The notes beneath the pieces were generated by a model. It searched no databases. It saw only the letters and a program-made list of their open reading frames with translations, and was not told the DNA's origin. Positions 21,400-61,982 of a stretch of DNA of 64,000 nt are shown in pieces. Positions within the stretch are counted from its first letter, which is position 1, and the number at the start of each line of letters is the position of its first letter. A program made the position numbers and the translations under genes. This DNA comes from Octopus vulgaris (taxonomy: Eukaryota), in the NCBI GenBank assembly GCA_951406725.2, contig OX597824.1, forward strand, positions 47,306,001 through 47,370,000, written 5' to 3'.

Positions 21400-22500
21400 G
21401 CAGAGAAAGTCTCTGCATTTGCATCCAACTCCCCATAGTGCACACTAGTTCAATCTTCTCTAAAACTACCCTTATCCACTCCACGGACACACCACCATCT
21501 ACATAAACACATCAAGTACATAAGTACCTCTGGTCACTTCATATCAGCAAGGCCACTAGTCATTACAATCCCCTTTCCATTATTCTTGATGTATCCCAAA
21601 GTTAGTCATTAACCACACTAAATGCTTTGATCTCTCTATCTTCTTGAATATATCCAGAACTTTAAAAACAGTGCAGTGTAACACTTTCCTTTTGTCCCTG
21701 CCAGACATCATTCTATCATATTCATTTCCAACATCTAAAAGGTATGGAAGCAGTCTAACAAACACCATCTTCAATCCTTCTGTTTTAATAATGACTTGGT
21801 ATGGCTTTCATAAATTAAGATCTATTGGGGATCAAATCATCAATGTCACTCACTAGTGAGCCCTCATCCTCAAGTAATTAGCTGAAAACAGTGTTTTGCA
21901 CTTGACATAAGCAAAACATTTAACCACTTGTTTAATATGCAAGTCTCCTAGAAAAACCAATTAACCTTGTGATTCATCTCGCATCTCTTGAGTCAGTAAC
22001 CTCCTGTCAGGTCCCAGCATCACAACACGTGTTGATTGTCCTCTCTCTGGTCTACACAGTATCAATACTGGTGTGCCTCAAGGTTTTTGTCCATTGCACT
22101 CTTCCTCCTATACATCAGTGACTTGTTTACTATCACTCCAACAATGCCCACTCCTATGCAGATGATACTACCCTTAATTCTCCTAACTTTCCCCATCCAA
22201 ATTTCATCTATGTACAATCAAGACACCTCCTACCAAATCTGCATTGATTCCATGTATTGGAACTTCAAAAATATTATGCAATGATGTCATGCCTGTCTTA
22301 TTTCCTTAAGCAACACACAAAGTTACCATGTGTATTAAGAAAACCATATCCTACCCCTCCTCCTAAATATAAACAGTATACAGCTAGAACTCTCAACATC
22401 ACTACAAATGCTAGGTCATACTACCACAGAGTTTTTCTCCTGGAGAATGGACATCTTCAGTATAGCACAGACAGCATCTTTAAGACAAACCTTATTCTTT
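21400..22500 (+). mobile_element. Degenerate LINE reverse-transcriptase remnant (Jockey/CR1-like group)
   Basis: Frameshifted RT motifs YGFHKLRSIGDQ, ALDISKTF, INTGVPQG, LFLLYISDL and SYADDTTL at ~21790-22180. Confidence 0.7.
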
Positions 22501-22956
22501 AAGGCAAAAAAAAAAATGCATCTAGATTCATTTTGTTTGCACAAGACAGGATGGTCACAATTAAAATGTCTTTGCTCATAGGTTTGCTTGATTGGAGCTA
22601 ATATGAGGCTAAACAACAACCACAAGGACAAGATGTTAGATAACGTAATGCTGGGTAAATAACATCTGAGAAAAAAAAAGGTATGTTTTTCACAGCTGGA
22701 ATGTTTTCGATCCTCTGTCTTCCCAATGAAAGCTGACGTGCAGCCAAAGAACAATAGAGCAGTAGGCAGAAAAATCTGGTTTGGTTGGTTTCTACTCTCT
22801 GTCAAGACATTAACTATTTACCACTTGCCAATGGTAAATATTCTCTAGAGACAGGGTGGTCCTTTTAAATCTGATATTGTTGAGGATAGTTGAAATATAA
22901 TCCTCATTAATTATTGAGTATACTAATAGCTATTTAACTTGTTTGTTTATATATTA

Positions 22957-25867
22957 CTGGCAATGCATCCCAACATTGCCCGGGTGTTATGAACTACAGC
23001 CATATTGTATTATTTGTTCCTTTCTTATGGGAAGAATCAACACAGCTGATATATAGTGAACTGGATTACTGGCATAATGGAAGTTATTATTTGTTTAAAA
23101 GTGAAGTGGGGGATGGTACAATTTGCATGGGTTTGCATGAAAGTGCTTTCTGTTCCTAAGAAGGATCACAAACTATGTATTGTTTCATCATATAAAAGGG
23201 GGCTAATGCAATTTTGCCCAGAAATCACAATTTCAAAATTTTAGTTTCCCCCTGTCCCCACTGCAATTTCTTAATTTGTAACTTTTTAATGAATTTTCTT
23301 TATTTATCCATGTAGAAAAATACAGAGATTACGAATCTGGGAAATATATTTTTTTTTTAAAGTTTAATTTTTCTTAAAGAAACATTCCATGCCTCTTCCC
23401 CCACCTTGCCCACCCATCACTTACCTGCTTTCAAAAAGTTAAAAACACCCTATATTTCATTTACATCTGATGTTTCATGCATGTGCAGAATTGTACTGAA
23501 ATAGCAGACATAAAAAATATTAGAGCACCACTAGAAAACCTGACATGCTAGAAACAGCAGATAAATGACATTATTGCTGAAGAAACTTCCCCACTTTCCA
23601 AAAAGCTAGAAGTGAGATATTGGGAGTTTGTAGCTTTTTGAAAGTGATGTGATGGATGGTTGTTTGAGAAGAGGATTTTAGTGTTTCTTCAAGAAAAACG
23701 AATGAAGAAAATTATTAAAGATTTGTACTCTGTTTTTTTCTTGGTGGATTACCAAGAAAATATTTGAAAAAAAGTTTAAAAAATGAAGAGATTGGGATGG
23801 GGACAGATAAAATTAAAATATTGAGAATGTGCTTTTTTTGGGGGGGGGCAATCCTACTCTCCTGTATTGAAAACATATGAATCAGAAGAAATTTAGGAAA
23901 AAGATCATGGTGGATGTGGGGGTGGGGGCACAAATGTCACCTTAGACATGCTAGAAACAACAGGGGAAGAACAGGATTTCTGGGAGAACTTCCTTTTAAA
24001 TTTACATCAAAGATGAGAAACACAAATTACAGAATAGAAAAAGATGATTTCAATTGGATTTGAGCTGTAATTTTGCACATACACATAGCAAGAAATGATA
24101 TAATTCATATAGAAATTTTACCGTGTGTGTATGTGCGTGTGTTTGTTTGTGCATGCATGTATGTGTGTGTGCCAAAGGAAGTTATTTTATAGCATTATTT
24201 CATTTGAAGCAGCAAAGTTGTCAACTCAATCATATGATTGTTCGTTAATTTCAGTAAAAATTTTTTATTTCTTTATGCTTTGAACAGAGCAAAATTTGAA
24301 AGAGAGGACAAAGTGAAAAGGCGACATTTACTTTGAAGTGAGAGCAGAAAGTGAAAGATGTATGTATGTGCATATGAAATGGACATGTTTGTGTGTGTAT
24401 GTTTGCATGTGTGTGTGGGAGAGAGAGAGAGAGAGAATGAATGAAGGAGTGTATTTTCATGTATGTATTTTTTTGCATGTATATGTAGGTGGCACTCACT
24501 CGCTCTCTCTCTCTCACACACACACACATCTTTCAAATACATTTATATAAATACACATGCATACATCTTTTTTGTATGCATCTGCATGTGAGAGAGAAAG
24601 TGAGTGGCTGTATTTCCTCATAACAAATAGAGAAATGGATGTCTTTTAAGGTACACACTCATATAGAAAATGTGACATCATCATCATTGTGATATAAAAT
24701 GTGGTTTTGGATAGTTGAATTATAGAAAAATTATAATGTTAAATTTTTGTAATGCAAATATTTAAATGAAAATAAAGGGTATTTATTAGCCAAAAAATTA
24801 CTGAATCTTTTGATACCCGTACATCAAAATCAGCAACTCAGTTTTCAAATGTATTCGTAAAATTCTGTAAAATTTTTATATTTCTTTATGCTTTGAAGAG
24901 AGCAGATATTGAAAGAGAAGAGAAAGTGAAATCGCAACATTTGCTTTGAAGTGAGAGCAGAAAGTGAAAGATGTATATACATGTATATGAAATGGACTAT
25001 GTGTGCGTGTGTGTGTGTATGTGTGTAAGAGAGAGAGAGGGAAGGAGAGAGAAAGTGAGTGAAGGTGTGTTGTTATATATGTGTAAGTGGCACTTACTCA
25101 GTCTCTCTCTTGCTCTCTGTCTCACACACATCTTTCGTCTACACATACATAAATACATATGCACGCATCTTTTTTGCATATGCATGTGCGTGTGCATGAG
25201 AGAAAGAGAGTGAGTGACTGCATTTTGTCATAACATAGAGAAATGGACGTCTTTTAAGGTAAACACTCTATAGAAAATGTGACGTCGTTGTCATCATCAT
25301 CATGGTATAAGATGTTTATGATAATTGATTTATAGAAAAGATTATAGTGTAAAATTTTTGTAATGCAAATATGTAAATGAAAATAAAGTTTATTTGGTAG
25401 TCATAACCTTACTAAATCTTTTGATATCCCATACGTCAAAATCAGCAACTCGGTTTTCGAATGCATAAGGAAGACACACGTGCACGGACTCACACACACA
25501 CACACACACACACACATAAACTCTCTTTTACATATATGGCAGGCGACCCTGTCTGTCGTTCTCTCTGTCTATCTCTCACATTCCCTGTGTGTGTCTATCT
25601 CTTCCTGTCTCCTCCCCTTCCCTCATATCAGCCACCCTCATTATGCCACATTTTCCTGAACCTAACACTTTTGTACCTCTCTCATTTTATAATGTAATAA
25701 CTCAGCCCCGGTAGTCGGTCCATTATTGATTTTTATTGAAATCCAATTAGTTTTTAATTGAAGTGGATGTTAGTTCAACTTTTATACAAAGTTTGGTGAA
25801 GATTGGTTCCCTGGTTTGGGCAGCAAGATGGTAACAGACAGACAGAAATTGCCATTTATATATAAGA
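22957..25867 (-). mobile_element. Non-autonomous Helitron (~2.9 kb)
   Basis: Minus strand starts A|TCTTATATATAAATGG...CTGTCTGTCTG and ends with a decayed GC hairpin cccgggcaatgttggg followed by CCAG|T (variant of CTAG). Insertion lies between A and T, the typical Helitron signature. Confidence 0.7.
24250..25463 (+). repeat. Two diverged tandem copies of a ~612-bp unit inside the Helitron
   Basis: tttctttatgctttgaa...ctttgaagtgagagcagaaagtgaaagatgtat at ~24270-24363 and ~24882-24975. Unit ends caaaatcagcaactc at ~24825 and ~25437. Confidence 0.85.
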
Positions 25868-27899
25868 TAATCTTGTTTTGTTTATATTATTATTTTGTTT
25901 TAATTTTCAGAAAACCACTATCTTATGAATAAAGTTCAGTCAATGATTGTTTGATAATAAAAGCCCCCGAACAAAATGAGATTTATTTGCTTCTCATATT
26001 TTTTCACAATTTACCAAGCAAGTATGAAATATAATGTTAGTTTGATATCAAGCAAGAAGGCACTTCATTTGACTCCAGTACAATTGCATTACAAAGCTCT
26101 TCAAATCTGTTTTACAAGTTATAGTAGTGAAATGCCAGGTTCAGAAATTTCTTGCTTACAACAACCATCTCAGTGATGCTGATAAACAGGACTTGATAAC
26201 AAATTATTTGTTCTAGCTGTCAGGACATTGTATCTCTCAAAAGTTCCATGCCTTCCAAAATTCTCCATCCTACTCTTAACATCCTCGTTGGAAAATAGAA
26301 AAAGAGAGGGCAAAAAACATCAATATGTCAAGTTAAGAAAGACAACAAAGATAGCCAAAAGTACATGCATGGTAAACAGGATAAAACACAAGACAAAAGG
26401 GAACACTAAAAGAGCCATAAAGGGAAATCGTGTGCAAGCATGTTAAGAGTAGGATGGAAAATTTCAGGCGTTCTCTGTACATTAAGCTCATTATTATGAA
26501 CTTCTATATATCTTACTCGACGTGTAGAAAGCCACAAAACTACGATATTGATCTTGAGAAAGCAACTCGCAAGACGTATAGGCATAGAAATGTTTCAGTA
26601 GCAGACGAAAAGCGCCCGGTAACGACAGTCCTATGCTTTTTAGCGCAACACGTCTAAACGAGATGCTTTCTCAAGAATCATTGCTAATAAAGAATCATTA
26701 TTATTGTTCATAACTTCTATTGACGGCAAACTTAGCATCAAGCAGTTGACATCTTCGAACCCCAGAATTAACTGCCCAGTTGTTCGACCATGTATAAATG
26801 TTATTCGTGCTACGTCAACAACAAAGCTCCCATCTGGTCAGTTTACTAACAACAATGACCGGTGAAGTGATCTTTCTGATTTGATGAGATGAATGAAATC
26901 CGAAATTCTAGTCGTAACAAAAGGTACTCAAAAAGATTTAACGAAGATTTGCTGTGTAGTTTTCCTAAAACAGGGAGGATTGTAAATTTTTTTTATTAGG
27001 TAGACTTCTTCAACTGTTTATATATTATCATTCTGTTTTATTTCTATCATCGTTATGGTTTACTTTCAGATAATCATTGTTTTAATGAATAATTCATGGT
27101 TGATGATTGTCTAGTGATAAAAGTCGAATAAGATTTATTTGTTTTCACAACAATGATAAGTACGTTTGATTTTATGATCCAAAAAGACCAGTTTATTAAA
27201 TTCCCTTCTATATGGTGACTACAAGTGATTCGGGTATGTTAATAGTTATCTCCCTTACACTTGGCAGCTACATCATAGATGAACCATTTAATAATTGAAA
27301 CGCATACATAGCAGTTAAATAAATGCAATTTAAATTTAAGTATATTTCATGAGACTTCGAAATTTTGTCACTCAACTGTGATCTTGTCCCTGACGGCTAA
27401 TGTGATAAAATGAATTTTAATAGCTTTGTGTGTTGTTAAATGATTCTTTCACGATGTAATTGCTTCAGTTTCAATACATGTTCTCAGATCAATTCACTTG
27501 CTGGGCATATACAACTTTGAAACACCTTAGGCTTAGACTTATTAATTCTTGGTAGATAATCGTTAGAATGTCTGCATTTTTTTTTATTGCACATGTTTTG
27601 AAAGGGCCGTGAGGTGCAAAGAAAACATGGAATAAATTATCCTCTTTGTTTAATACTAGGACATGTTTCCTAAAATTTGCCAACACTACTTTTCATCTAT
27701 GCACCATTTTCTCTCTATATGGCTATTTTACTATTAATTTTTCTATCTTCTTGTATTTTATCCATGTACTTTTGGCTATCTTCACTGTCTTTGTTAATAC
27801 TTTCTGCCTTCTTTTTTACCTTTTTCCAACAAGTTTTAGTGAACCATAAGCATGTCAGGAGTAATGTTGGCAAATCTCAAGATGCATGAAATTTTTGAA

Positions 27900-29350
27900 G
27901 AGTGTTCTGACACCTAACAACTAGGGTGAATGTTTATTCCATAATTCAAGAATTCTGAGTGAAAATATGTTTCCAGAGGTCATGGGTACTGTGTTGCATT
28001 TTGTTGTTGTTTTAAAGCATGCCCACAAGAGGTAGAGGTATTGAATTCAAAAAGGTGGTCACATCTGTTGTTAGAAAGATAGTGGATAACCTTGTGGGCT
28101 TCTAACAAGTAAGCTGCTGGACATTGGAATTTTAGTGTTTAAATGTCCAGAGAAGCAATACATTCAATATGGTAAGTGACTGGCAGAGGATTTTTATCTG
28201 ATTGTATGTCTCTGTACATCCCCCAGCAGATCAGTATTATGAACAACATGGGGGTTGGTTCCAAACTGGAAATGCAAACTCTAGGTGTAGATATACTATA
28301 GCCATATATAGTTTTAAATAAATAACTGATGTCCAGATGACAAAAATCTTACTAAGACACCTTCAGCCTTTTTGATGATTTTAAAATGTGGTTCATCCAA
28401 TGCAGACCATTGTTGTCAATAATACCTAGGATGCATCTACCTGCAGACTTCTTAAATTTGGTGTTGTAGAGGGAGTTGGTAAATTCTAGATTTTACCTCC
28501 CAAAATACATAGTTATACACTTGTCTACAGCCAACTCAAGTTGCTAATCAACAATCTATTGCTACATTGTGTCCAGGTCAGATTGCAGGAAAGATCCATT
28601 CTTTTTATCTCTAGGTACAGCTTAACACTGTCTGTATAACACACTTCATTAGTTGGCATCTATGCATCAAATAACAGAGAATGGGGACTAAGAACAGTTC
28701 CCTGGTGGCAGCAGATGTCATCGCATAAAGTGTAAAATTTTGTCCTAATACTGTGACTACCTCTTTTCAACCAAGATTTAAGGCCTTCAGTCAGTTATAA
28801 AGATTAGCCTTCACACTCATTGCAGGGTACTTTACCATATGCTGTTTGTGTAGCACAGAATTAAAGGCTTTGATGAAGTCATGATAGATAACATCCACCC
28901 ATGCCTGAGATTTGGGTGATGTCTTCAAGAAAATTGATGGGTTAGTTGCAGTAGCTGGAGTTTGGTACAAATCCAAATTGCAAGAGTCAACTAAGATTAT
29001 AAGAGTTCCCGGAGTTTTTAAGCATCTCTCTGATACATGACTCTTTCAGTTTGTGAGATTGACTGGATCTTAATTGACAGGTTATGTACAGTGACCTTTT
29101 TGAACAGGGAAATAACACAGGCAATTTTCCACTGTTCTGGGATAATGCAGTTAAGGCAGAATTGGAAAAGTAGTCAAAGCTGGTACAATAGAAAGAGACT
29201 TCCATATCTGAGAAGGAGATAAGTAACACCACCAAGACCAGGGGAGGCATAATTGCCCATACACTTGAAGTGTCATTGCAGCATTACAGGTCAGTAGCAG
29301 TGAAGATGGTACATTGGCATTTTTTTCAACAGTAAAAATGCCAGTATAGC
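27900..29350 (-). mobile_element. Degenerate CR1/L2-like LINE remnant
   Basis: Minus-strand RT motifs VDVIYHDFIKAFNSVLHK, a decayed QGTVLSP and YTDSVKL (YADD-like). Confidence 0.7.
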
Positions 29351-30122: not shown

Positions 30123-30503
30123 TAGCTTACAAACTCTGGGAAAAATACTACAAAACAGAGACAAAGACAGAAGATTGGTCAATGCTAGGATATATGAAAC
30201 TATGGATCTAAGATCACAAAGTCAAAAAACAGACAATCAAAAAGATCCATTGCAAAGACAACTACAACTTATCCAATAAGGTTGGGCTGCTTCAAATAGA
30301 ATAAGAAAACTATGGAAACAGTTCAAAACATGACAATTAGCCCATCCTTACTGAGTTGTTAGTGACTGCCTTTGCAATTGTTCTTTGATTGCCTGTTTCT
30401 TGACTTAATGATCTTTGAGTTGTAGTTTCATGTACTCTAGCATTAGTCAATCTTCTACTTTTGTCTTTGCTTTGTAATATTTAATTCCAGAGTTTGTAAG
30501 CTA
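30123..30503. repeat. Degenerate inverted repeat with ~150-bp arms
   Basis: tagcttacaaactctgg (30123-) pairs with ccagagtttgtaagcta (-30503). Internal pairs include gaagattggtcaatgctag / ctagcattagtcaatcttc. Confidence 0.7.
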
Positions 30504-39757: not shown

Positions 39758-39802
39758 CATATATACATACACACACGCACACACACACACACACACATAT
39801 AT

Positions 39803-40170
39803 GGGTGCAGGAGTGGCTGAGTGGTAAGAAGCTTACTTCTCAACCACATGGTTCCAGGTTCAGTTCCACTGTCTGGTACCTTGGGCAAGTGTCTTCTACT
39901 ATAGCCTCGGCCAACCAAAGCCTTGTGAGTGGATCTGGTAGACAGAAACTCAAAGAAACCTGTATGTATGTATATATGTATGTATGTACTTGTGTGTCTT
40001 TGCTTGTTCCTTCACCAACAGTTGACAGCTGATGTTGGTATGTTTACATTCCCTTAACTTAGCGGTTCAGCAAAAGTTACTGATAGAATAAGTACTAGGC
40101 TTACAAAGAAGTCCTGGGGGCGTACTCCAACATGGCTGCAGTCAGATGACTGAAACAAGTAAAACAAAAG
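39803..40170 (+). mobile_element. tRNA-derived SINE family A, near full length
   Basis: A-box gtggctgagtggtaa, B-box ggttcagttcc, central ccttgggcaagtgtcttctactatagcc, internal (TA/TG)n and tail actgaaacaagtaaaa. Partial copies occur near 2210, 7655, 29520, 41190 and 41353. Confidence 0.85.
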
Positions 40171-41319: not shown

Positions 41320-41355
<36 letters not shown>

Positions 41356-41583
41356 CGGGGCTTCTTTCAGTTTCCATCTACCAAATCCACTCACAAGGCT
41401 TTGGTCAGCCTGAAGCTATAGTAGAAGATATTTGCCAAAGGTGCCATACAGTGAGACTGAACCTGCAACCATGTGGTTGGGAAGCAAGCTTCTTACCAGA
41501 GGAGAGTAAAGTAGAATATGGAGCACTCATAGTACATACCTATTACATTATGCCAGTTGATGAAAAAATATATATATATATAT

Positions 41584-44500
41584 CAGTGGCGTGCGGTGAC
41601 TTCCGGCGTTGGGCATGCAATTAATTTCATTGCCCCCCCCCCCCCCGGCAATTTTTCAGTAAGACATTTTCGTATTCCTACGATTTACATATAAGAGATT
41701 CTGAATATGCAGAATAAACAGGGAATAAAAAATGGCTGTGCAGAGATGATCCTGAAATAAGTGTATTGTTTGTATTATTCTTTGCTCTTCGAAACGTCAG
41801 TACTTTCCCATCCTCATTCTCCCTTAGAAAAGTCTAAAAATCATAAGTGAAATGTAATAAAGATGAAATTGGATTCTGTCAATATTTTTGCATATTCAGA
41901 ATCTCTGTTAAAGGTAGGAATCCGAAAAAAAATTTTCACATAAATTCGTTTTTCAAAGGGGTGCGATTCTGCATTAGCCCCTATACCTATCGGTTGAGCT
42001 GGATGAAATGATTTAATTAAAAGGACACATTTAGTTACATTATATGGCCATGGTTTTAGATCGTTACGCTCTCGAAGACAAGTCAGGTTCTTTATCATGC
42101 TACTTGTCAATTCCGGGAAGATTATTGACTGTTCTGAGACTTACTGAACTCCGTACATTAAAGGACTACGTCTCACGCACAAACATTGAAAATACACGCA
42201 TATACATGAATACGCACACAATGAAAGACAGCGAAAATTCAACATTGTAAAAAGCCTCCCAAAACTGTTGTGGCAGAAATCAACATCTCTGAGATTGAAA
42301 CAAGACACTTATTGAAAGTGAAACAAAACACTTATTTACGGCCGTAAATAGACTACACCCAGCAGCACAGAAAGGGAGATCTATGTAGGTTAGGTTTCAC
42401 AAAGAAATCAAAACATTTCTCCTGCGAAACAATACTGATGTAAGAAGGTCGAACCTTACGTTATAACAAACACTAAGCAAAACCTGTAATATATGCTCTT
42501 TAATATATTATTTTTTTTAATGTTTTAAAATGTTACTTAGCTCATTTATAAATTAATTCAATTCTTCGATCTTTCTGGGTAAATATATCTATCACATTTT
42601 CATAGAAATCTCTTTTCATCAATTCTTGTAATAAATCTTTTTCAATTGACATTAGTGCTAACCCAGACAGTCTTCTTTCTCCTGTCGCATTTCTTTGGTA
42701 TGTTTTAATTCTACTTAATGCAGAAAAGGATCGCTCTACAGAAGCAGTGGTAGATGGAATTGTCAAAATCAACTTGCACAGATTGAAGAGTTCTGGCATA
42801 GCTTCAACAAGATCAGTGCTGTTAATGTAACTCATTAAATGACTTACACTTGGTTTTTTAAAATCTTTCATTGAATACATCACATTGAGCTCACTTTGTA
42901 ATCGTATTACATCAAAAAATCTGCCATAAGTTGTTCTTAAAGAATCTAAAGAGTCCACAGGAAATTGTTTGCAATACTCATCAACTTTGTTGAAATTCAA
43001 AAGTTCCATGAATTTAAACTGTTCTAAGGATGAATATCGTGCTTTTATTTGGTCAACTATTGTACTTATAATTTTGTTATAAAGCGTTCTATAATGTCGT
43101 TGGGGATCAATAGATATATTCTTGGATCTCTGAATTCCGATTCCTGCATCGACTCCATATTTTTCCCCTAACCTATCATAAAAGACTGAAAAATTATCAA
43201 GTTTGTTTTCGAGTACAGTTCTAGTTTTATCTATTTGCTGTTTACAATACACTATGTCATGATTTTTACTCTGGAGTATGTTAAATAAGACGTCAGTAAA
43301 AGAAAAAATGTCACTGAATACCTCTAACAAAAATAAGAAATCAGGAGCTTTTAAAGTGTGTAAGAATCCAATTGCTGAATTTATGGTGGTATCATCCCAT
43401 GCTTCAGGATTTTCAATGATGTGTTCAAAAAGGCTGATTATGAAATTATAATTTTCCTTTGTGGTAATAATAAGACGTGAGGAGTAATTCCATCTAGTTG
43501 CTGTTGCTTTCGGAAATCTTTTTTTAACAATATTATCTAATGCATTAGTCCTTTTCGGTGATTTCGTAAAAAATGTACCGAGTCCGTTTATTGTAGAAAA
43601 AAATATCTTGCATTCTTTCATAGCATAGCATGATTGTGAAAGAACTAAATTTAGGATATGGGCACAACAATGAATAAAGATCGCACATTCATATTTCTTT
43701 CTTACTTTTGCCTGTAACCCATTTAGTTGTCCTGCCATTGTAGCGGCACCATCATATGTCTGCGCAATCAATTTGTTTCCACATTCCCACGTCTCAATGC
43801 ATTTAAAAACATGTTCAGATAAAGCATTTGCAGATCGATCTTCACTAACATCACTAAAACCGATAAATCGTTCTTTCGTCACACAGTCTTCTGTAACATA
43901 ATGTAAAACTGTTGACAGTTGTGAAGATGCTGAGACATCAGATGTCTCATCAACAAGAATAGAAACAAACTTAGCTTGGTCAATTTCCTTCTGCATCTCA
44001 TTCAACATAACTTTATGAATTGCTTCGATCAAGTCATTTTGAATTCTGTTCGACAGACCAGTGAAGATAGAAGCTGTATCTAAATGACATTCCATATGTT
44101 TGTCATATTTACTGATCAAATAAACGAGTTCTTTATAATTTCCCCGATTATTAGAGCCTTCAGATTCAAAATGACCCCGAAACGATAATTCCTGGAGGTC
44201 TAAAAAAATAACAACATCGATCAATCGTTGCAGAATGGATCTGTTTCGTTGAACTTTCTCATTATGCTGTTGTATGCTTTGATTTTTACGTGCATCTAAT
44301 TGTAAGTCTATGCGAACATTCCCGAATATTTTAAGGTCTATCAAACATTTTATATGCCTTTGAGAACGCTCGTGCTTTAGCATAGCCATATGTAAATTAT
44401 TTAAATCATCATAGCCTTTATCATTCCAAACATTTTTTTCTAAGCCAAAAAGTAAACACGGCCAACAGAATAATTTATTAAGAGCAACACTTCCAGTTAA

Positions 44501-45377
44501 CCATTTCTTCTTTTCATACGAATTAACCTGAAATTGTCTCGTGAATTTCTTGTTGTAGCTTCGCAAATTAGGTAAATTCGGTGTTGGTCTGCCACGATTT
44601 ATAATTAATTTTTTCCCATCGAAGTCCCTTTTAGAAAAACTAGTTCTCAAAATATCGTTTATAGCACACATTTCACTCATTTTAAAAAAGGCTGCTCTTA
44701 TTTAAGGACCCACGTGGAAGCGCCGGCGTAAATTTTAAGTCAATTTCAACAAAATGGAAAAATACCCTTTGTTAAATTAATTTAAGATTAATTAGCTATT
44801 TCTGAAATAAGAAATATAATATAGATATTTTTGCTTTCAAAACTTTCTAAAAATATGATAGTGCAAACGGATGTTTTGGATAAAAAATTTCTTACTTACA
44901 AGCGAAGGCTATTCCAACATTTCAGCTGGCTAAAACAAGAATTATGGGACGGCTCTTGTTCCGGTCAAAATAGCCAGAGAAGCGTGATATGCGATCTTAG
45001 AACAGCATGACACGCCAAACTGAATTTGTCGAATCGTTGAGACAGAAAGGGGTGACCATTTCTCGTAGCATATCTTTTAAACAAAGAAAGAGGAAGAAGG
45101 GACAAACTATCAAAGACAGAGAGAAGGGAACTCATGCTGTCTTCTCAACGCATGACAAGCGATAAATTTATCGAGTCACTAAGATAGAGAGAGAGGGGAA
45201 GGAAGGACAAACTAATACAGACAGAGAGGGAGTGTGTATCATGCGATCTTCTAAAAGCATTTATCAAAGCAGATGTACGAAGTGGAGACAATATTTCTAA
45301 AACAACTGGACGTATTTTCTTTCAAACAAAGAAGGCATGCAGCGCATACCTTGCATTGCTGAGAGTGCACGCCCCTG
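41584..45377 (-). mobile_element. Full-length hAT DNA transposon (Tip100/ZMYM1-like), ~3.8 kb
   Basis: TIRs cagtggcgtgc / gcacgcccctg (10/11 match). 8-bp atatatat on both sides within a (TA)n tract. Subterminal repeats at ~44990-45260 and one long ORF. Confidence 0.93.
42542..44680 (-). CDS. Intact 712-aa hAT transposase (TTF-type Zn finger, DUF4371-like region, hATC dimerisation domain)
   Basis: Uninterrupted ORF with WL...LFCWPCLLF...KHERSQRH, LSFRGH, NRIQNDLI, catalytic VDETSD / YDGA / SVERSFS, plus IHCCAH (CxxH) and TRWN. Confidence 0.93.
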   Translation of the reverse strand: MSEMCAINDILRTSFSKRDFDGKKLIINRGRPTPNLPNLRSYNKKFTRQFQVNSYEKKKWLTGSVALNKLFCWPCLLFGLEKNVWNDKGYDDLNNLHMAMLKHERSQRHIKCLIDLKIFGNVRIDLQLDARKNQSIQQHNEKVQRNRSILQRLIDVVIFLDLQELSFRGHFESEGSNNRGNYKELVYLISKYDKHMECHLDTASIFTGLSNRIQNDLIEAIHKVMLNEMQKEIDQAKFVSILVDETSDVSASSQLSTVLHYVTEDCVTKERFIGFSDVSEDRSANALSEHVFKCIETWECGNKLIAQTYDGAATMAGQLNGLQAKVRKKYECAIFIHCCAHILNLVLSQSCYAMKECKIFFSTINGLGTFFTKSPKRTNALDNIVKKRFPKATATRWNYSSRLIITTKENYNFIISLFEHIIENPEAWDDTTINSAIGFLHTLKAPDFLFLLEVFSDIFSFTDVLFNILQSKNHDIVYCKQQIDKTRTVLENKLDNFSVFYDRLGEKYGVDAGIGIQRSKNISIDPQRHYRTLYNKIISTIVDQIKARYSSLEQFKFMELLNFNKVDEYCKQFPVDSLDSLRTTYGRFFDVIRLQSELNVMYSMKDFKKPSVSHLMSYINSTDLVEAMPELFNLCKLILTIPSTTASVERSFSALSRIKTYQRNATGERRLSGLALMSIEKDLLQELMKRDFYENVIDIFTQKDRRIELIYK

Positions 45378-51819: not shown

Positions 51820-53078
51820 TCAGGTCATCCCATAAGTTCTGTGCCATAAGATTTTACCTTTTTTCAAATTGAATGAAATTTAATAGTATTTTAGAATGTC
51901 TAATGGAATTAAAAATTATTTTTATGCATTTGTGTACATTTAAACTAATTAACTATTATTTTACAGGATGATAGGATTATAATTTCTTTGATTAAAACCC
52001 TTTCTAACATGGAAGTATCCAAAGAGCAGTTGAAGCACATAATGCTTTATGAGTACAAGAAAGGAAACTCTGCAGCCGAAGCGACTCGAAACATACACTC
52101 AGTTTATGGAAAAGAATGCTTGAATGAAAGAACTTGTAGAAGATAGTTTGCAAAATTCAGAGGTGAAGATTTCAGCCTTGAAGATGAAGATCAAACAGGA
52201 CGTCCAGTTGAGTTTGATGATAAGCTCCTTGAGGCATTACTTGAAGAAAATCCTGCATTATCAGTTGAAGAATTGGCAATAAAGCTTAGTTGAAACTATA
52301 CAACTGTTCATCGTTATCTTCAACAACTTGGAAAATGGGTGCCTCATGAATTGTCCAAAAGCAACTGCAAATCCTGAGTTGACATCTGCTCTTCTCTCCA
52401 TTCTTGCAAACTCATTTCACTCTTTTTGGATAGACTTGTGACTGGTGATGAAAATTGGATCTTCTATCGAAATGTTAAACATCGTAAACAGTGGCTTGGT
52501 AAAAGGGAAAAAGCTCAACCACAACCGAGAAGGGAACTTCATAGGAAAAAGGTTCTTCTCTCTATCTGGTTGGATTGCAAGGGAGTAATTCACTTTGAAT
52601 TATTACCACCTAATGGAACAATCAATTCTCAAGTCTACTGTCAACAATTAAAGCATTTGAACCAAGCTTTGAAGAAAAAAAGACCCACTTTAGTGAATCG
52701 AAAAGGAGCGATGTTTTATCAGGACAATGTGCGACCCCACACTGCAAAGATCACATCACAGAAGATAAAGGACTTGGGTGGGAAAAAATTCCTCATCCAC
52801 CTTGCTCCTTCAGACTTCCATTTGTTTCGTAGTTTACAGAATCATTTGGGGAACATAACTATCGCAAGCTAGGAGGAGGTTGAAACTGACATTTCAGTGT
52901 TCTTTGCTTTGAAGAAACCAAAAGAGTTTTACATTGATGGGATTTAAAAGCTTGTAAATAGATGGAAGGAAGTCATAGATAATCAGGGAGAGTACATTGA
53001 TGATTAAATTTCAATTAAATATAACATTTGATCACTTGTTTTCTTAATTAAAAATTTGGACAAAATGGGATAACCTGA
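51820..53078 (+). mobile_element. Near full-length mariner element (Hsmar1/SETMAR-like), transposase pseudogene 52009-53007
   Basis: TA|tcaggtcatcccat ... atgggataacctga|TA. MEVSKEQLKHIMLYEYKKGNSAAEA..., WVPHEL, VTGDENW, QDNVRPH and LAPSDFHLF, with in-frame stops and deletions. Confidence 0.92.
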
Positions 53079-55440: not shown

Positions 55441-57754
55441 ATGATGCTTTTGCTTAGAAAATTAGGAATGGGTGTTTATGTATGATGTATTACAATGCAG
55501 TGTATGTAGTAATATATGTTATGTAGATGTTATTGTTGTTGCTGTTTAGGTTCAGCTTAACCATGATTGCACTGATCTATGATTCCAGCTGTGATAATCC
55601 AATCCTTTTAGACATATGTCTATGATAGCATTATTCTAGCATGTTTTTTTTTTTTCTTTTGAGATGGTAGGTTTGAGGTTAGATTTGGTTAGTATTTCTA
55701 ATAATTCATGTGACTGCCTAGAAGACCTTTCATTTTCTAATTATGTGAGTGTGATGTGAATATGTGTGTCAGAAATATATCAATTCCAAAATATCCTTGA
55801 CTATGAGCCTGTAATCACATGCATACTTGATATCTGTATTCAACTCGTGACAAGGAGTGTGTATATCTATATTTCACTTTAACCTATATTTCACTTCATT
55901 ACAATGGTTGACATCTTTCACTTACAATGTTAACCCCATCTTAGAAAGAAAAAAAAGAAAAGAAAAAACAAATATTTTTCTTTAAGTGGTTAAAGCATTA
56001 GAAGAATTAATTGAATTGAATTTATTGTCAGAAACTTGGTACAAATAAATTGAATGACCTTGTCTTTAACAACACAGCAGAAATAAACCATATACTCCAT
56101 TCTGTAATTTGTTTCTCTCCAAAGTTTATTGGTTCCATTTCAACAACACAACATTACTTCCCATACTTTTCTGTCATATTTTTTCGGCATCACCTAATAT
56201 GTATAACTCTTTATCATCAAAACTACTTCTCACTTGAGCTTCTTTTCTTATTCAACTTTTCTTCAATTCTTTTACAATACATACTTCAAAAGAAAATGTA
56301 TATACAGTTGAACTTTCCCCTCCTTCTGCTCTAACCTGTTTGAGATCTTTGTGTATGTTTGCTACAGAATGGGTGTACTGAAAATAGTTACATAAATCTG
56401 CAAGTAAATGATTTAATAAATATATTTGATGCTATTGAAAATCATTAGAGAGTTGGAGGAAATACTTTACATTCTGAGTTCAAATCTTGCAGAGGTCAAC
56501 TTTGCCTTTCATCTTTCTGGGAGGTTGATGAAATAAAGTACCAGTCAAATACTGGGGTTGATGGTATCAACTAACCCCTCTCAGAATTACTGGCCTTGTG
56601 CCTAAATTATAAACAGTTATATTACTTTACAAGCAGATCAATAAATTGATAGATCATTGGATAAAATATTGTTGTATATTGAGTTCAAAACCAATTAAAG
56701 TCAATTTTGTTTTTCATTCTTTCATAGTCAATAAAATAAGTATCAGTTTAGTACTGCTGATGGATATAATCAAGTGTTGCTTCCCTCAAAACTTGTGGCT
56801 ATGTACCTATGTTAGAAATCATTATATTTCTTTGCAAGTGCTTAGCTGAGGTGGTAGGTACTAGGTGAGCCAAGGCTAGGCAAACTCGGGTTCAATTTTT
56901 GGTTGCAACTATGTCATTTATTCTTCCAATAATCCTAAAGGAAAGACATGGATGCCATAACTCTCAATTCCTTAATATGTATAATTAACAGGGCTGATTA
57001 CTCACTGATAAATGTCTGTGATCATGACAGGAAATAATCACATTTGTGTTAGGGATAAATATATAGTTACCTTTATCTCTCTATGTTACTTAATTTTATT
57101 TATTTATTAGTTTACTAATTACTACTCATAATGTTTTACATGCATTAACTACAATGCTAGACCATTACTGTTTACATTAGGTTGCTAGTACCAGCATTTC
57201 ATACAACTACTATATATAGTAAGAAATTAGACAGTAGTGCATAATTCAAAGCAGAGAAGAACAGAAAATTTTACAGCCTATAATTAAGACTACATTTTGT
57301 TTACTCTTAAATTTTAGATTTGTATGCTGACAATAAAGATAGGATACCCATGATCATATTGCAAATCAAATACTGAATACTCTGGATAGCATATATCTGC
57401 ACATCATGATTGCTGTTGGCATTGGGGTGCTCCTCCTAGCAATCTGATTGGCTGACTGATTACCAAGATTATAGACCCTTCACATTAATTTCAAGTGTTA
57501 TGGTCATAATAACAACAAAAATTGTCACTTTTGTATAGCTTCTGATACAAAAGAAAGTTAACTTTTGCTCAAAAGACTTCTTAATGACACATGTGCCACA
57601 TATGATGTCTTACAAAATAAATCATATATTTCATAATGAAAACAAGAATCGTTTTACTCTAATGGATAAGACAAGTATAACTTTTAAAACACATCCTCAT
57701 TTTATTTACATTATTTACATTTGATGGATATTTGTCCTCGTCTTGTTTGTTGTT

Positions 57755-57800
57755 AACACAACGTTTCAGCTGATATACCCTCCAGCCTTCATCAGGTGTT
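57755..57800 (-). ncRNA. Minimal type I hammerhead ribozyme (Penelope-type), minus-strand copy
   Basis: AACAC-CUGAUGA-A-GGCUG(GAGGGUAUAU)CAGCU-GAAAC-GUU-GUGUU: stem I AACAC/GUGUU, stem II GGCUG/CAGCU, and palindromic AACGUU in place of stem III. Confidence 0.75.
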
Positions 57801-58094
57801 TTGGGGAAATTTCAAACCTGGGTTCTTGTTCCTAAGGTATTTTTTGATGTAATAATAATAATAATAATAGTAATTATTATTATTATTATTATTCAGGTCA
57901 CAGCCTGGAATCGAACTCAGAATCTTGGGGTTAGTAGCCCGCACTCTTAACCATTATGCCATATACCTGTAGTGGTTAAGAGTGCGACTACTAACCCCAA
58001 GATTCCAAGTTCGATTCCAGGCTGTGACCTAAATAATAATAATAATTACATTGAAAAATACCTTAGGAATGAGAACCCATTGAAATTTCCCCAA

Positions 58095-58140
58095 GACACC
58101 TGATGAAGGTTGGAGGGTATATCAGCTGAAACGTTGTGTT
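58095..58140 (+). ncRNA. Minimal type I hammerhead ribozyme (Penelope-type), plus-strand copy
   Basis: GACAC-CUGAUGA(58100-58106)-A-GGUUG...CAGCU-GAAAC(58128-58132)-GUU-GUGUU. Predicted cleavage is after 58135, and stem II contains G-U wobbles. Confidence 0.7.
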
Positions 58141-58645
58141 GACAACAAACAAGATGTGGACAAATATCCATCAAATGTAAATAATGGACATAATTCCTCA
58201 TCTCTTAAATATAGAACTGTAACATCCTCATTTGTAGATCTAATGCCAAAGAATTCTTTAGCGCAAATGAAATGATCTCTGTTGACTGACTGAAAAGTAA
58301 TGGTGTTTCTTACATCAATACTACAGCTTATTCCAAAATGTCCACATTAACTGTATTATTGGACATATTTATAGTAATTTAATCCATCCATCTGGCACAG
58401 ACTGTTACTAGTTGTTATTGTCATTCTTCAGGAAACAATATTTAGTGATTGGCTTGTCTACAAAATGAAACAAGCCAAACATGAATTTGATCATTTAAAA
58501 TATGTTTTTAAAAAATCTGAAGTGCTAGCATTACATATAGTATTGTTAAGCACATGCCATGAGTGAATAATCTGACTAGGGAGTTGATGTTAATAAGGAA
58601 TTTTGTCAACAAATGACCCTGTGACCATCTTTATTTTATCTTCTA

Positions 58646-59047
58646 TCTTTTACTTGTTTCAACCATTAGACTTGTTTCTTTTACTTGTTTCAACCATGCC
58701 AGAGCACTACCTTGAGGAATTTTTAGCTGAAAGAATCAACTCCAGTACTTTTTTCTTTTAAGCCTGATACTTATTCTATCGATCTCTTTTGCCAAACTGC
58801 TAAGTTATGGGGACATAAACACACCAACACCAGTTGTCAAGCGGTGGTGGGGTACAAATACACACACATGCACACACACACATATGACCAACCTCTTTCA
58901 GTTTCTGTTTACCAGATCCACTCACAAGGCTTTGGTTGGCTCAAGTCTATAGTAGAAGACACTTGCTCAAGGTGCCACACATTGGGACTGAACCCAGAAC
59001 CATGTAGCTGGGAAGCAAACTTCTTACTACACAGCCATGCTTGCACC
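58646..59047 (-). mobile_element. tRNA-derived SINE family A copy
   Basis: Reverse-complement homologue of 39803-40170 (tacttgtttca..., ctttcagtttc..ccactcacaaggctttgg..., gactgaaccc..cacagccat). Confidence 0.8.
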
Positions 59048-60110
59048 TATGAGAGACAATATGCAGTGTATTTTTCATGATTACTTAAAGCATTAGGCAA
59101 AGTATTTAAATCACAATACCCAAATCATACACACAAACTTTCACTAGATATAGAAAATAAGAAGCATTTTTTTATAATTCAGTTCCCCAACCACTGTCTC
59201 TTGCTGAATTATACAGTTTGATGGGCTATTATTCTGGTAACTTTAGTTGTTGAGGTTGTTTCTTTTCAGGTATTCTTTTACGATTTTCTTAACTCCATTA
59301 ACTTTTCTTTCAAAGCAGACACATTGGTTTCAATGGACACAGGTCTAGTGCAGGATTCTCTTTCTTTCAAACATATCTGCTCCTTACCACCCTACCAGTT
59401 ACCTAGAAGATAATACAATAAGTTGTTCCTTTGGTACAAATGTTAAAATTTTGAAAGCTATACTAATCTTGTACCATTTCTGATTATGAGTATCTTAATC
59501 AAAAATGGTGCAAGATTAGTAATCTGAAGCATTGTAAATGTGTACATCAAACAATATAGAAAGAACATTATCAATCAGGTGAGCACTTCACATTATGTTG
59601 ATAGAAATAATAAGTAGTTTCAATTAGTTATATTGGATAAGTCACATTGATTATGATTCGACCCCAATGTAATTTAATAGATAATTGAGACTCAAGAATG
59701 CCTGTCACACATTATGCTCCGCCTCCTTTTCATCATCTTCATTGGTAGCAACAACACTAACCAATAGAATGTCTTGTATGTCAGTGTGGGTTGAACTTCA
59801 TCATTCAGTCAGCATTCTAGACACACAATCCTAAGATTTGGGTTTAACAAAGCATTTATTCAAAGAGACGTGGCTGCTAAATTTCGTGTGGGTTAAATAA
59901 CTACTAAGGACATCCTTTTTTGAGAATCTCTTAGTAGAATCATTATTTAGAACCTCCTTCCACTATCTCACTCTGCACCATGTCCAACTTACAGGCTCTT
60001 ACCTTGAAGTTTTTATTTGTGCTTGTACATAAGAAAGGGCAGAGTAAACAGATATGTGACTTTCCCCACTGTTAATAACACAGCTATTAAGCAGTACTGC
60101 TAATGATTAC

Positions 60111-60373: not shown

Positions 60374-60608
60374 CACATATATATGCATATATATATATAT
60401 ATATATACACATGTATATGCATATATATATATATATATATACACACGATGGGCTTCTTTCAGTTTCCGTCTACCAAATCCACTCACAAAGTTTTGGTCAG
60501 CCCAAGGCTACAGTAGAAGACACTTGCCCAAGGTGCCACACAGTGGGAATGAACCCAGAACCATGTGGCTGGTAAGCAAGCTACTTACCACACAGCCACT
60601 GCTGTGCC
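60111..60608 (-). mobile_element. tRNA-derived SINE family A copy with expanded internal (TA)n
   Basis: ttttacttgtttcagtca...gggcttctttcagtttccgtctaccaaatccactcaca...cacttgcccaaggtgcc...ccacacagccact. Confidence 0.85.
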
Positions 60609-61982
60609 TATGTTAAGCAAAAATACAGAAATAGCTATTAGTCTTAGTCAGGAAAGAAACAGCTGGCTGCAGTAAAATTTGGTCTCATATCTTTGTGTTA
60701 TAACTAATCGAATCTGCTTATTATTTCTATCAGTATATGTAAAGTGTTCACCTGACTGATAATGTTTCTGCAACACTGTTTGATCTACATAGGTTCAATG
60801 CCTAGATTACAGTGTTCATATTAAAAAATGGTACAAGACTAGTATAGCTTTTCAACATTCAGTAACATATTGACAGTCATTCAGTTATTTTGGCCTCATT
60901 GATAATGTACATTTCTTTATGACTGACACATGTTCAGTTCTAGAAAGTTTCTATGTAGTTGCTTAATCTGAAATAGTAGCCAAGTCTCCTTCCAATCACT
61001 GTCTTAAAAAAGGAAAGGCACATTAGAGCTTATCTGAAGAATGATAGGATGGCCATGAAATGGAATGTTTTTGATCAAAGGTTTGTTTGATCATCGCTGA
61101 ACTGGATCTGAACAAGAACTAATTTCTTATTTACAAACTGGATAAGTTACTCAATAGTTTTAATTTGATTGTCAAGGTCTAATTTTTCTCAAATCGTTTT
61201 GATTAGGTGATAAGCCTTTTAAAGGCTAAATATTAGTTATGAGAGAAGCAAAGCATCTTGAGTTAGTTTCAGTGTTTGGCAGCAAATTGAAACCAATTTC
61301 CCTCACTTAAACTGCCAATACACTTGAAAATGCCGAACTTGTTTTGTTTATAAATTTTTGCTCTTACCTTTAAGAAATGAATATTTTGAAGCAAAATCTC
61401 GGGATTTTTCTCAAGAACATTCATCAGATATTTCTCTAGTAATTTGTACACTTTAAAGGTGTAATTTCTTTTACTAAAAAACTTAGGACTAGTAGTAATC
61501 CAGTTCTAGATTTAATGGGGATTAAAGCGCTATGTTTATTAGTTAAATTTTATGATTTATGATTAAGTACTTTTTCAACTAAGTGGCCTTGAAGTATAAC
61601 TGACAGTATTTATGGCCACTAGTAATATAAAACAGGCTTGGAAAATAAATATGATGAAAGTGTACCTTCAAAAGGTATAAGAGAAATTTAACCCTTTGGA
61701 GATGGAGCCTCATTTGGAGTTTCAGTGCCAAGAGGACAGAGCCCGTTTCACAAGACCTACAAAGGACATACACTTATTTTTTCAAAAATATTGTAAAAAA
61801 ATAAAGCACCTGCTTTGCATATATAAAACTACATATATTCTTGTAGGAAATTGAATGAACAATCTTCTTTTGTCGTTCAATTTTTCAGCTGATAGATCAG
61901 CCCTGTCATCTCCAAGGGTTAAGGAGAGTTGTAACTGATGAAATTATATGGTTTATAATGATGTCATTGAACAAAGATTAAA

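What the first reader, a model, noticed from the sequence alone, without database searches (positions are those of the whole stretch)
57691..58233. Palindromic Pol III-headed retroelement carrying two hammerhead ribozymes (SINE/Penelope/retrozyme chimera)
Seen: a 519-bp insert bounded by a perfect 12-bp TSD (acatcctcattt) and built from two inverted arms. Each arm reads outward as tRNA-like A/B-box head, (AAT)n, then stem I-CUGAUGA-stem II-GAAAC-GUU-stem I. Stem III is replaced by the palindrome AACGUU. Several arm differences are reciprocal CG>TG/CA changes (tctgag/tccaag, catcaa/cattga, aacaag/aatgag), so the arms were probably identical at insertion. Known: minimal type I hammerheads lacking stem III occur in Penelope-like element repeats and cleave as dimers, and Penelope insertions often form inverted repeats. 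Inference: this is a non-autonomous family that couples a tRNA-derived Pol III promoter to a self-cleaving motif and borrows Penelope RT/endonuclease rather than LINE machinery. That combination is not the usual description of either SINEs or retrozymes.
Basis: partly seen in the sequence, partly recalled or inferred. Interest (0 to 1): 0.8.

Follow-up and report, generated by a model that had tools for sequence, protein, structure and literature searches.

The report
tRNA-headed SINE riding Penelope machinery
This is an inverted pair of copies of a very abundant short octopus mobile element that starts with a tRNA-derived head (a predicted promoter) and ends in a hammerhead-ribozyme motif and tail of the Penelope-retrotransposon type, so it was likely copied by Penelope enzymes rather than by the LINE enzymes that normally move such elements.

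Summary
The 519-bp insert, the 12-bp TSD and both minimal hammerhead motifs are real and beyond chance. The mobile unit is one ~255-nt arm, not the palindrome. 21,500-28,300 contigs per DNA run map to it in three organisms, and Octopus proteins match it. Other copies also join head to hammerhead. The head aligns end to end with tRNA genes, most likely tRNA-Arg(ACG). The family has two fixed 3' ends 35 nt apart, and other loci show head-to-head inversions with varying junctions. Both are Penelope-like element (PLE) signatures. Neither arm here can be a copy of the other, so two priming events are inferred. The two hammerheads lie on opposite strands and cannot pair in cis. Copies keep the head upstream of the cut site, so uncut RNA was likely the template. 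No autonomous partner, Pol III transcript or cleavage product was found. A Pol III promoter plus hammerhead is known (Schistosoma Sm-alpha), as are non-autonomous PLEs. I found no description of a dispersed tRNA-headed element with PLE tail and inversion, but could not search Repbase, Dfam or SINEBase. Verdict: new variant of a known kind, interest 0.62.

The parts
57691..57702 (+). Left copy of the 12-bp target-site duplication
   Evidence: exact repeat; 1 of 3000 random spans
57703..57968 (-). Left arm: full-length head, no tail; ends in the 9-nt repeat at the short 3' end class
   Evidence: short-end class at 58186 equivalent table 7
57703..57754 (-). Left arm, region 3' of the hammerhead up to the short end (inferred first RT start site)
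57755..57800 (-). Minimal type I hammerhead motif, left arm; predicted cut between 57760 and 57759
   Evidence: descriptor hit at 57795(-)
57801..57850 (-). Linker between microsatellite and hammerhead (inferred pLTR-derived)
   Evidence: arm alignment; origin is inference
57851..57893 (-). (AAT)n tract with a local 27-nt inverted expansion absent from the right arm
57894..57968 (-). Complete tRNA-derived head (A box 57961-57951, B box 57916-57908), closest to tRNA-Arg(ACG)
57968..57968 (.). Head-to-head junction; one base can be read as belonging to either arm
   Evidence: sequence with family alleles at 57954-57965 (table 3)
57968..58221 (+). Right arm: head truncated by ~10 nt, carries the tail
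57968..58031 (+). 5'-truncated tRNA-derived head (B box 58009-58017, A box incomplete)
58032..58046 (+). (AAT)n tract
58047..58094 (+). Linker; 3-bp deletion at about 58079 relative to the left arm and the family
   Evidence: (table 4)
58095..58140 (+). Minimal type I hammerhead motif: stem I 58095-99/58136-40, core 58100-06, extra A 58107, stem II 58108-13/58122-27, GAAA 58128-31, palindrome 58130-35; predicted cut after 58135
   Evidence: features as in PMC4209133
58141..58186 (+). Region 3' of the hammerhead up to the short 3' end class
   Evidence: loose ends behind 58186 in all 4 runs
58187..58221 (+). 35-nt optional tail (inferred second RT start site at 58221)
   Evidence: loose ends behind 58221 in all 4 runs; absent from left arm
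58222..58233 (+). Right copy of the 12-bp target-site duplication
   Evidence: repeat depth ends in this bin (table 2)

Best explanation
The insert is two head-to-head copies of a ~255-nt, very high-copy non-coding Octopus repeat (tRNA-derived head, (AAT)n, minimal hammerhead motif, optional 35-nt tail) that likely works as a SINE borrowing the reverse transcriptase and GIY-YIG endonuclease of a Penelope-like element instead of a LINE. Shown: the anatomy, the family-level head-hammerhead link, two fixed 3' ends, varying inverted junctions, the TSD and the tRNA origin of the head. Inferred steps: (1) A PLE end piece landed in the (AAT)n tract behind a tRNA-Arg-derived head. (2) Pol III transcribes from tRNA position 1 through head, hammerhead and tail; neither arm has a TTTT stop. 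(3) PLE protein binds the pLTR-derived part and nicks both target strands 12 nt apart. (4) Each nick primes reverse transcription, one at the tail end and one at the short end. (5) The two cDNAs join head to head by one base of microhomology. The hammerhead is likely a passenger of the PLE recognition region, or at most a brake: cutting at 58135 would separate the promoter from the priming sites, so head-bearing copies came from uncut RNA.
For: Family: 24,349, 28,320 and 21,542 contigs laid in three DNA runs; summed depth 1-6 million over 57992-58219, against 26-123 for the single contigs listed, and near zero in the flank. Octopus link: P0002 and P0025 (O. bimaculoides) and P0095 (O. sinensis). 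Head joined to hammerhead at other loci: 3 of the 24 longest pieces listed run from 57988 or 58001 to 58121-58126 with about 10% other letters (table 8). Two 3' end classes with unrelated flanks (agreement 0.40-0.52): 58186 (160, 112, 124 contigs; 1341 reads) and 58221 (368, 285, 285; 1170 reads). This matches the optional 30-40-bp PLE tail, which in vitro lies between two RT start sites. Six other junction types join the inverted head to a partner starting at 58138, 58142, 58148, 58161, 58164 or 58171; two of them show the head ending 7 nt before the A box (tables 5, 5c). The left arm has head positions 1-10 and the right arm has the tail, so neither is a fold-back copy of the other. The anole PLE nicks and extends both strands, prefers ATT and inserts uncut RNA. 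Head: 110 of 118 loci with its T-arm motif carry a tRNA gene, 99 of 114 tRNA hits are Arg, and the part outside the search motif scores 35 against a maximum of 32 in 300 shuffles. Longest T run is 3 in both arms; 348 of 2550 window stretches lack TTTT. A sister family changes one stem II pair on both sides and core position 7, inferred from codons in 160 units.
Against: No autonomous PLE sharing the 3' half was found. Three protein searches and one phmmer run gave ORFs that look like spurious calls over repeat copies, and 0 of 7 sequence words matched the PLE supplement of PMC8557442, whose long runs are cut. The RNA run shows equal reads on both strands, 89% running on into other sequence and no pile-up of ends, so there is no sign of Pol III or cleaved RNA. 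The junction evidence is single contigs with 21-25 letters on the short side, from 15 of 99 and 12 of 75 rows shown. Depth is 2-3 times higher at the hammerhead than at the head, so headless copies could include pieces of an unseen PLE. The catalytic dimer is not the best fold (-13.3 vs -24.0 and -18.3 vs -26.6 kcal/mol). Rfam and ARAGORN give no hit. The best full-length tRNA alignment is a near tie between Met and Arg (70.0 vs 69.5). The empty site was not seen.
Confidence: 0.74

Rival explanations
1. The unit is only the 5'-truncated end of an autonomous PLE whose pseudo-LTR once captured a tRNA-derived sequence. Copies come from the PLE's own Pol II RNA, and the head has no promoter role.
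For: PLE copies are mostly 5'-truncated ends with the same tail and inversion. Depth is higher at the hammerhead than at the head. No Pol III RNA was seen. One of 131 sister-family proteins runs into an RT fragment (P0111).
Against: Where junction letters are shown, full arms stop at tRNA position 1 (2 rows table 5c, and this locus), which random truncation would not give. No common upstream sequence appears among the loose ends shown. There is no TTTT in the sense strand. Sister-family units also abut LTR-type RT, integrase and Mos1 fragments (4 of 6 scanned), so P0111 may be a chance neighbour.
Confidence: 0.13
2. A retrozyme of the Sm-alpha type: tandem masters are cut by dimeric hammerheads into monomers or circles, which are then reverse transcribed.
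For: The motif has all PLE minimal-hammerhead features. The sister family occurs in tandem, with 21 of 131 proteins holding 2 or more units at a period of 43 residues. Sm-alpha joins a Pol III promoter and a hammerhead.
Against: The two motifs here are on opposite strands. Copies are colinear head-hammerhead-tail, not permuted at the cut site. Ends map to 58186 and 58221, not 58135. There is no pile-up of RNA ends (table 6).
Confidence: 0.05
3. An ordinary LINE-mobilised SINE; the palindrome arose from two insertions or from L1-type twin priming, and the hammerhead is incidental.
For: tRNA head, short length, TSD and high copy number are SINE traits.
Against: The simple repeat is internal, not terminal, and there is no poly(A) end. 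There are two fixed 3' ends 35 nt apart. The arms cover the same sequence, whereas L1 twin priming gives non-overlapping pieces (own knowledge). Both arms share two alleles found in 3% or less of the family, inside one TSD pair.
Confidence: 0.04
4. A fold-back (MITE-like) DNA transposon that moves as the whole palindrome.
For: Long inverted arms with a TSD; three other long palindromes lie in the window.
Against: The outer ends differ, with the tail on one side only. The centre and the partner length differ from locus to locus. The hammerhead and tRNA features are RNA-level signals.
Confidence: 0.04

Closest known systems
Endonuclease-bearing Penelope-like elements (Penelope/Poseidon, Neptune) and their pLTR minimal hammerheads (PMC4209133, PMC3846280, PMC11167929, PMC8557442)
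   Same: Minimal type I hammerhead with extra base before stem II, G10.1-C11.1 and palindromic helix III remnant; head-to-head inverted 5'-truncated partner; optional 30-40-bp tail on one end; TSD of similar size (8-10 bp in A. vaga, 12 here); AT-rich target.
   Different: No ORF; ~255 nt; the 5' end is a tRNA-derived head where a pLTR would continue into the endonuclease coding region; partner element not found.
tRNA-derived SINEs (SINE2), including octopus OR1 and OR2 (CORE-SINEs per PMC4824008 and PMC4758252; Ohshima and Okada 1994 not seen)
   Same: tRNA-derived head with A and B boxes at the 5' end, non-coding, dispersed, very high copy number, TSD.
   Different: The 3' part is PLE-type, not a LINE tail; the simple repeat is internal; copies come as inverted pairs with two fixed 3' ends. 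I could not compare it with the OR1, OR2 or other deposited octopus consensus sequences.
[quoted passage not shown]
   Same: tRNA-related Pol III promoter and a hammerhead in one short repeat.
   Different: Sm-alpha is described as tandem, cut into monomers that leave the promoter at the 3' end. Here copies are dispersed, keep the promoter 5' of an uncut minimal hammerhead, and carry PLE tail and inversion.
Animal non-LTR retrozymes (PMC7229834; bioRxiv 10.64898/2026.07.22.740005)
   Same: Short, non-coding, hammerhead-bearing, proposed to use PLE machinery.
   Different: Defined by tandem units with two or more same-strand hammerheads and circular RNA; no tRNA head in the preprint (0 occurrences of 'tRNA'). 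This locus is an inverted pair.
TRIMp3: Cassandra, Helenus, Ajax (PMC10886601)
   Same: A small-RNA Pol III promoter captured by a non-autonomous element that uses non-LINE machinery.
   Different: Those depend on LTR retrotransposons (LTRs, PBS, PPT, 4-5-bp TSD). This would be the PLE counterpart.
Non-autonomous PLEs (MRC1 in Chlamydomonas, PMC8557442; short Penelope in Heliconius, 10.1101/596502)
   Same: Short elements with PLE 3' ends moved in trans.
   Different: No tRNA-derived head is mentioned in the passages seen.

Membership tests
PLE minimal hammerhead (Cervera and de la Pena 2014) | Core CUGANGA and GAAA with helix I of 4-5 bp and a long helix II | tested here: met
   helix I 5 bp, helix II 6 bp in both arms; 0.02 chance hits per 64 kb
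PLE minimal hammerhead (Cervera and de la Pena 2014) | Extra base between 9 and 10.1; G10.1-C11.1 pair; palindromic 15.2-16.2 | tested here: met
   A58107; G58108 with C at 58127 as family majority (59-64%; U in both arms here); AACGUU
PLE minimal hammerhead (Cervera and de la Pena 2014) | Covariation among families | tested here: inconclusive
   Inferred from codons only: sister family R/W/Q 105/38/15 and R/Q/W 106/28/18 of 160 units points to C-G for U-A in stem II. DNA not seen, and hits were selected by likeness.
PLE minimal hammerhead (Cervera and de la Pena 2014) | Self-cleavage as a dimer or with protein help | not testable with these tools
   no RNA end pile-up; catalytic dimer not the best fold
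PLE-mobilised insertion | Optional 30-40-bp tail on one end | tested here: met
   35 nt; end classes 58186 and 58221 in 4 of 4 runs
PLE-mobilised insertion | Head-to-head inverted 5'-truncated partner inside one TSD | tested here: met
   six other junction types
PLE-mobilised insertion | 3' part shared with an autonomous PLE of the same genome | tested here: inconclusive
   no genome held; protein and supplement searches found none
Autonomous PLE | ORF with RT and GIY-YIG endonuclease | tested here: not met
   no such ORF in the insert; none among 17 window ORFs scanned of 60 listed
tRNA-derived SINE (SINE2) | tRNA-derived head with A and B boxes at the 5' end | tested here: met
   Rfam and ARAGORN do not call it
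tRNA-derived SINE (SINE2) | Short, non-coding, dispersed, high copy, TSD | tested here: met
tRNA-derived SINE (SINE2) | Transcription by RNA polymerase III | tested here: inconclusive
   no TTTT and ends at position 1 in 2 junction rows; the RNA run looks like read-through
tRNA-derived SINE (SINE2) | LINE-derived or simple-repeat 3' tail and dependence on a LINE | tested here: not met
   3' ends are two fixed non-repetitive sites; (AAT)n is internal
Non-LTR retrozyme / Sm-alpha type | Tandem units with two or more same-strand hammerheads | tested here: not met
   opposite strands at this locus; tandem seen only in the sister family; genome-wide not testable
Non-LTR retrozyme / Sm-alpha type | Cleaved monomers and circular RNA | tested here: inconclusive
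   no pile-up of ends and no such joint among the rows shown, one RNA run, 6% read

The most novel reading that the evidence does not exclude
A so far undescribed class: a Pol III-driven, tRNA-headed SINE that parasitises Penelope-like elements, the PLE counterpart of LINE-dependent SINEs and LTR-dependent TRIMp3, amplified to tens of thousands of copies in Octopus. Because the template RNA has a fixed 5' end, its inverted pairs show that PLE inversions form by priming from both target nicks on uncut RNA, possibly on two RNAs held together by the protein dimer or the hammerhead palindrome.
Probability: 0.5. Interest if true: 0.78.

Novelty: new variant of a known kind. Interest (0 to 1): 0.62.

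Why it matters
SINEs are defined as LINE parasites. A very abundant tRNA-headed family with PLE tail and inversion would add PLEs as SINE carriers and would be misfiled in cephalopod repeat annotations. How PLE inverted repeats form and what their hammerheads do are open questions (PMC3846280, PMC8557442, PMC11167929). A short template with a fixed start and tens of thousands of junctions makes both testable by counting: arm pairs that are not subsets of each other favour two priming events, and 5' ends at the cut site measure cleavage. Inverted pairs also make long double-stranded RNA when read through, which could feed A-to-I editing in octopus.

Tried and rejected
No whole genome is held, so no copy census. 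Rfam at gathering score and at E<=10 gave only chance hits. Pattern scans for the hammerhead loop found 0 loci in metagenomes and 2 + 16 loci in genomes and viral contigs; all 18 match only 17-20 bases and were dropped as chance. Two other CUGANGA...GAAAC matches in the window (12080, 14393) have no stems. Single-strand folds of head and hammerhead are no better than shuffles (z -0.24 to 0.96). The open frame through the hammerhead as the N-terminus of a partner ORF: a search of longer proteins found nothing; 31 phmmer hits had no RT or GIY-YIG among the 29 scanned, and P0009 was dropped as an EGF false hit; of the best 120 of 395 profile hits, 5 carry transposon domains and only P0111 has RVT_1. 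In one search my rule misassigned P0017 and P0019, so the counts quoted come. Rejected: cis dimer, fold-back copying of one arm, and the palindrome as the mobile unit. Ten literature searches found no tRNA-headed PLE-dependent family. Albertin 2015 is not held, and bioRxiv supplements could not be seen.
Full report
Observation. The insert 57703-58221 (519 bp) lies between two exact copies of a 12-mer; 1 of 3000 random spans of that length has such a match. It consists of two inverted arms that differ at 14 of 225 aligned columns, 13 by transitions. A minimal-hammerhead scan of both strands of the window hits only these arms (58100+ and 57795-); 100 shuffles give 0.02 hits on average and none with a palindromic helix III. 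The window holds one complete A+B box pair, in the left arm; 6 of 200 shuffles give one. Rfam and ARAGORN call neither a hammerhead nor a tRNA here.

Family and host. No genome is held, so I laid four public runs on the right arm and flank (57935-58500; 4 of the 24 runs listed). The three DNA runs, of coded organisms A, B and D, gave 24,349, 28,320 and 21,542 contigs. Summed depth is 1-6 million over 57992-58219, against 26-123 for the single contigs listed, and it drops to almost nothing in the flank. The tool warns that this is no copy number; I read it only as 'tens of thousands'. A reading frame through the right arm matches an O. bimaculoides predicted protein at 85%, the N-terminus of an O. 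bimaculoides dystrobrevin isoform and an O. sinensis protein. These look like gene calls over repeat copies and place the family in Octopus. The species of the window was not determined. One contig of run X6 runs from 58197 through the TSD into the flank with 13 differences in 303; it has 25 letters on the element side, under the tool's bar of 31, so a shared insertion is only suggested. At about 3% change per arm and the scale in PMC13282606 (0.065 = 18 million years), the insertion is roughly 8 million years old, an estimate inflated by CpG decay.

The head. Of 118 metagenome loci holding the head's T-arm motif, 110 carry a tRNA gene over the match; 99 of 114 tRNA hits are Arg, 76 of them ACG. 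The head aligns end to end with these genes at about 70% identity. The part outside the search motif scores 35 against a tRNA-Arg(ACG), above all 300 shuffles (maximum 32). Over the full length a tRNA-Met ties (70.0 vs 69.5), so the isotype is likely but not certain. Head and hammerhead are joined at other loci too: 3 of the 24 longest pieces listed span 57988 or 58001 to 58121-58126 with about 10% other letters. Among the 24 loose-end rows shown (1239 not shown), none marks head-only copies. Neither arm has a T run over 3 in the sense strand, a state found in 348 of 2550 stretches of the window: compatible with Pol III read-through, but weak alone.

The hammerhead. Family alleles restore a perfect stem II: C at 58110 in 96% and C at 58127 in 59-64% of DNA depth, with the CpG at 58132/58133 decayed in 15-31%. 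The motif has every trait listed for metazoan PLE minimal hammerheads (PMC4209133, text parts 1-2 of 4). A sister family, seen only as translated ORFs from unnamed ENA contigs, gives indirect covariation: in 160 units from 131 proteins the codons over 58111 and 58123-25 read R/W/Q 105/38/15 and R/Q/W 106/28/18, the pattern of decaying CGG codons, so a C-G pair likely replaces U-A in stem II; D to E changes the variable core position 7 (E at that position was part of my family rule, and hits were chosen by likeness). Against activity: the catalytic trans dimer is 8-11 kcal/mol above the best dimer fold, and the RNA run shows no pile-up of ends.

PLE signatures. Copies end at two fixed places, each followed by unrelated flanks: 58186 (160, 112, 124 contigs; 1341 reads) and 58221 (368, 285, 285; 1170 reads). 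The left arm here has the short end and the right arm the long one. This is the optional 30-40-bp tail of PLEs, found with a head-to-head inverted 5'-truncated partner and a short TSD (passages of PMC8557442 and PMC3846280). In vitro the anole PLE nicks and extends both strands, prefers ATT, starts reverse transcription at two internal sites that bound the tail, and uses uncut RNA (PMC11167929, parts 1-2 of 4). Other loci show the inverted head joined to partners starting at 58138, 58142, 58148, 58161, 58164 or 58171. In two rows the letters between show the head ending 7 nt before the A box, at tRNA position 1, as in this locus. These are single contigs with 21-25 letters on the short side, from 15 of 99 and 12 of 75 rows shown. 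The palindrome is therefore made anew at each insertion.

Mechanism. Both arms carry T at 58023 and 58047, where 97-98% of family depth has A, so they share one source. The left arm alone has head positions 1-10 and the right arm alone has the tail, so neither can be a fold-back copy of the other. The simplest reading (inference) is two nicks 12 nt apart, each priming reverse transcription, one at each start site, with the cDNAs joined through one shared base at 57968. A copy that keeps the head 5' of the cut site must come from uncut RNA, so the hammerhead is likely carried as part of the region the PLE protein recognises. By analogy with the anole element, which needs RNA beyond its start sites, only master loci with further PLE sequence would be active. 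The origin is likely a PLE end inserted in the (AAT)n tract behind a tRNA-derived head.

What was not found. No autonomous partner. One of 131 sister-family proteins continues into an RT fragment, but other sister-family units abut unrelated transposon fragments. In the RNA run (8,658 reads of 12.9 million records, 6% of the run) both strands are equal and 89% of reads run on into other sequence, which looks like read-through; such a library can miss short Pol III RNA.

Comparison and novelty. It works like a PLE-mobilised SINE. It meets the PLE insertion tests and the SINE head tests, fails the LINE-tail test and, at this locus, the retrozyme tandem test. The ingredients are known: a Pol III promoter with a hammerhead in Sm-alpha and Sj-alpha (passages; original papers not seen), retrozymes as PLE derivatives (preprint parts 1 and 3 of 5 and passages; passages of PMC7229834 and PMC11722881), non-autonomous PLEs (passages) and Pol III-headed LTR parasites (PMC10886601, part 1 of 6 and passages). 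Octopus repeat papers (passages of PMC13282606 with its supplement, and PMC8967140) list SINEs and PLEs without such a chimera; OR1 and OR2 are cited as CORE-SINEs (passages). Ten searches found no tRNA-headed PLE-dependent family. Repbase, Dfam, SINEBase, Ohshima and Okada 1994 and Albertin 2015 could not be seen, and a family this abundant is probably deposited under some label. Verdict: new variant of a known kind; interest 0.62; best explanation 0.74.

Noticed in passing
window 58056-58085 (RNA run X23): 272 reads have a loose end before 58086 that differs from the DNA majority by 7 A>G (of 11 A) and 2 C>T in 30 letters. The RNA run has 24 A>G and 25 T>C places against 6-7 and 8-12 in the DNA runs. 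This looks like A-to-I hyper-editing, but no DNA run of the same animal was at hand, and one highly expressed locus may contribute.
   Followed up: partly
proteins P0003-P0149: A sister hammerhead-bearing family from unnamed ENA contigs, with a fixed upstream segment of about 29 codons; 21 of 131 proteins hold tandem units (period 43 residues, about 129 nt), like a retrozyme. P0111 continues in frame into an RVT_1 fragment whose motifs look PLE-like (motif judgement from own knowledge).
   Followed up: partly
proteins P0025 and P0095: Predicted N-termini of an O. bimaculoides dystrobrevin beta isoform and an O. sinensis protein are read from copies of this family: exonisation or annotation artefact.
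   Followed up: no
window 58174-58194: Many family copies carry one extra 9-nt repeat unit just before the tail (loose ends before 58174); the short 3' end falls in this repeat.
   Followed up: partly
window 58023: The rare allele shared by both arms improves the acceptor-stem pairing of the head, so this copy may belong to an older subfamily (inference).
   Followed up: no
window 20073-20581, 30123-30503, 13790-14092: Three other long palindromes (about 80%, 72% and 66% self-complementary), unrelated to this family and with no hammerhead hit; MITE-like.
   Followed up: partly
window 42542-44701 (-): 719-codon open frame with DUF4371 and hAT dimerisation domains: an intact-looking hAT-type transposase or a domesticated gene.
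   Followed up: no
window 52378-52872 (+): Mariner-type transposase fragment (Transposase_1).
   Followed up: no
window 58753-59051, 60415-60612, 39801-40110, 41322-41498, 2222-2342: Several copies of another dispersed SINE-like repeat, not similar to this family.
   Followed up: no
window 24241-25466: Direct tandem duplication of a unit of about 613 bp at 79% identity.
   Followed up: no
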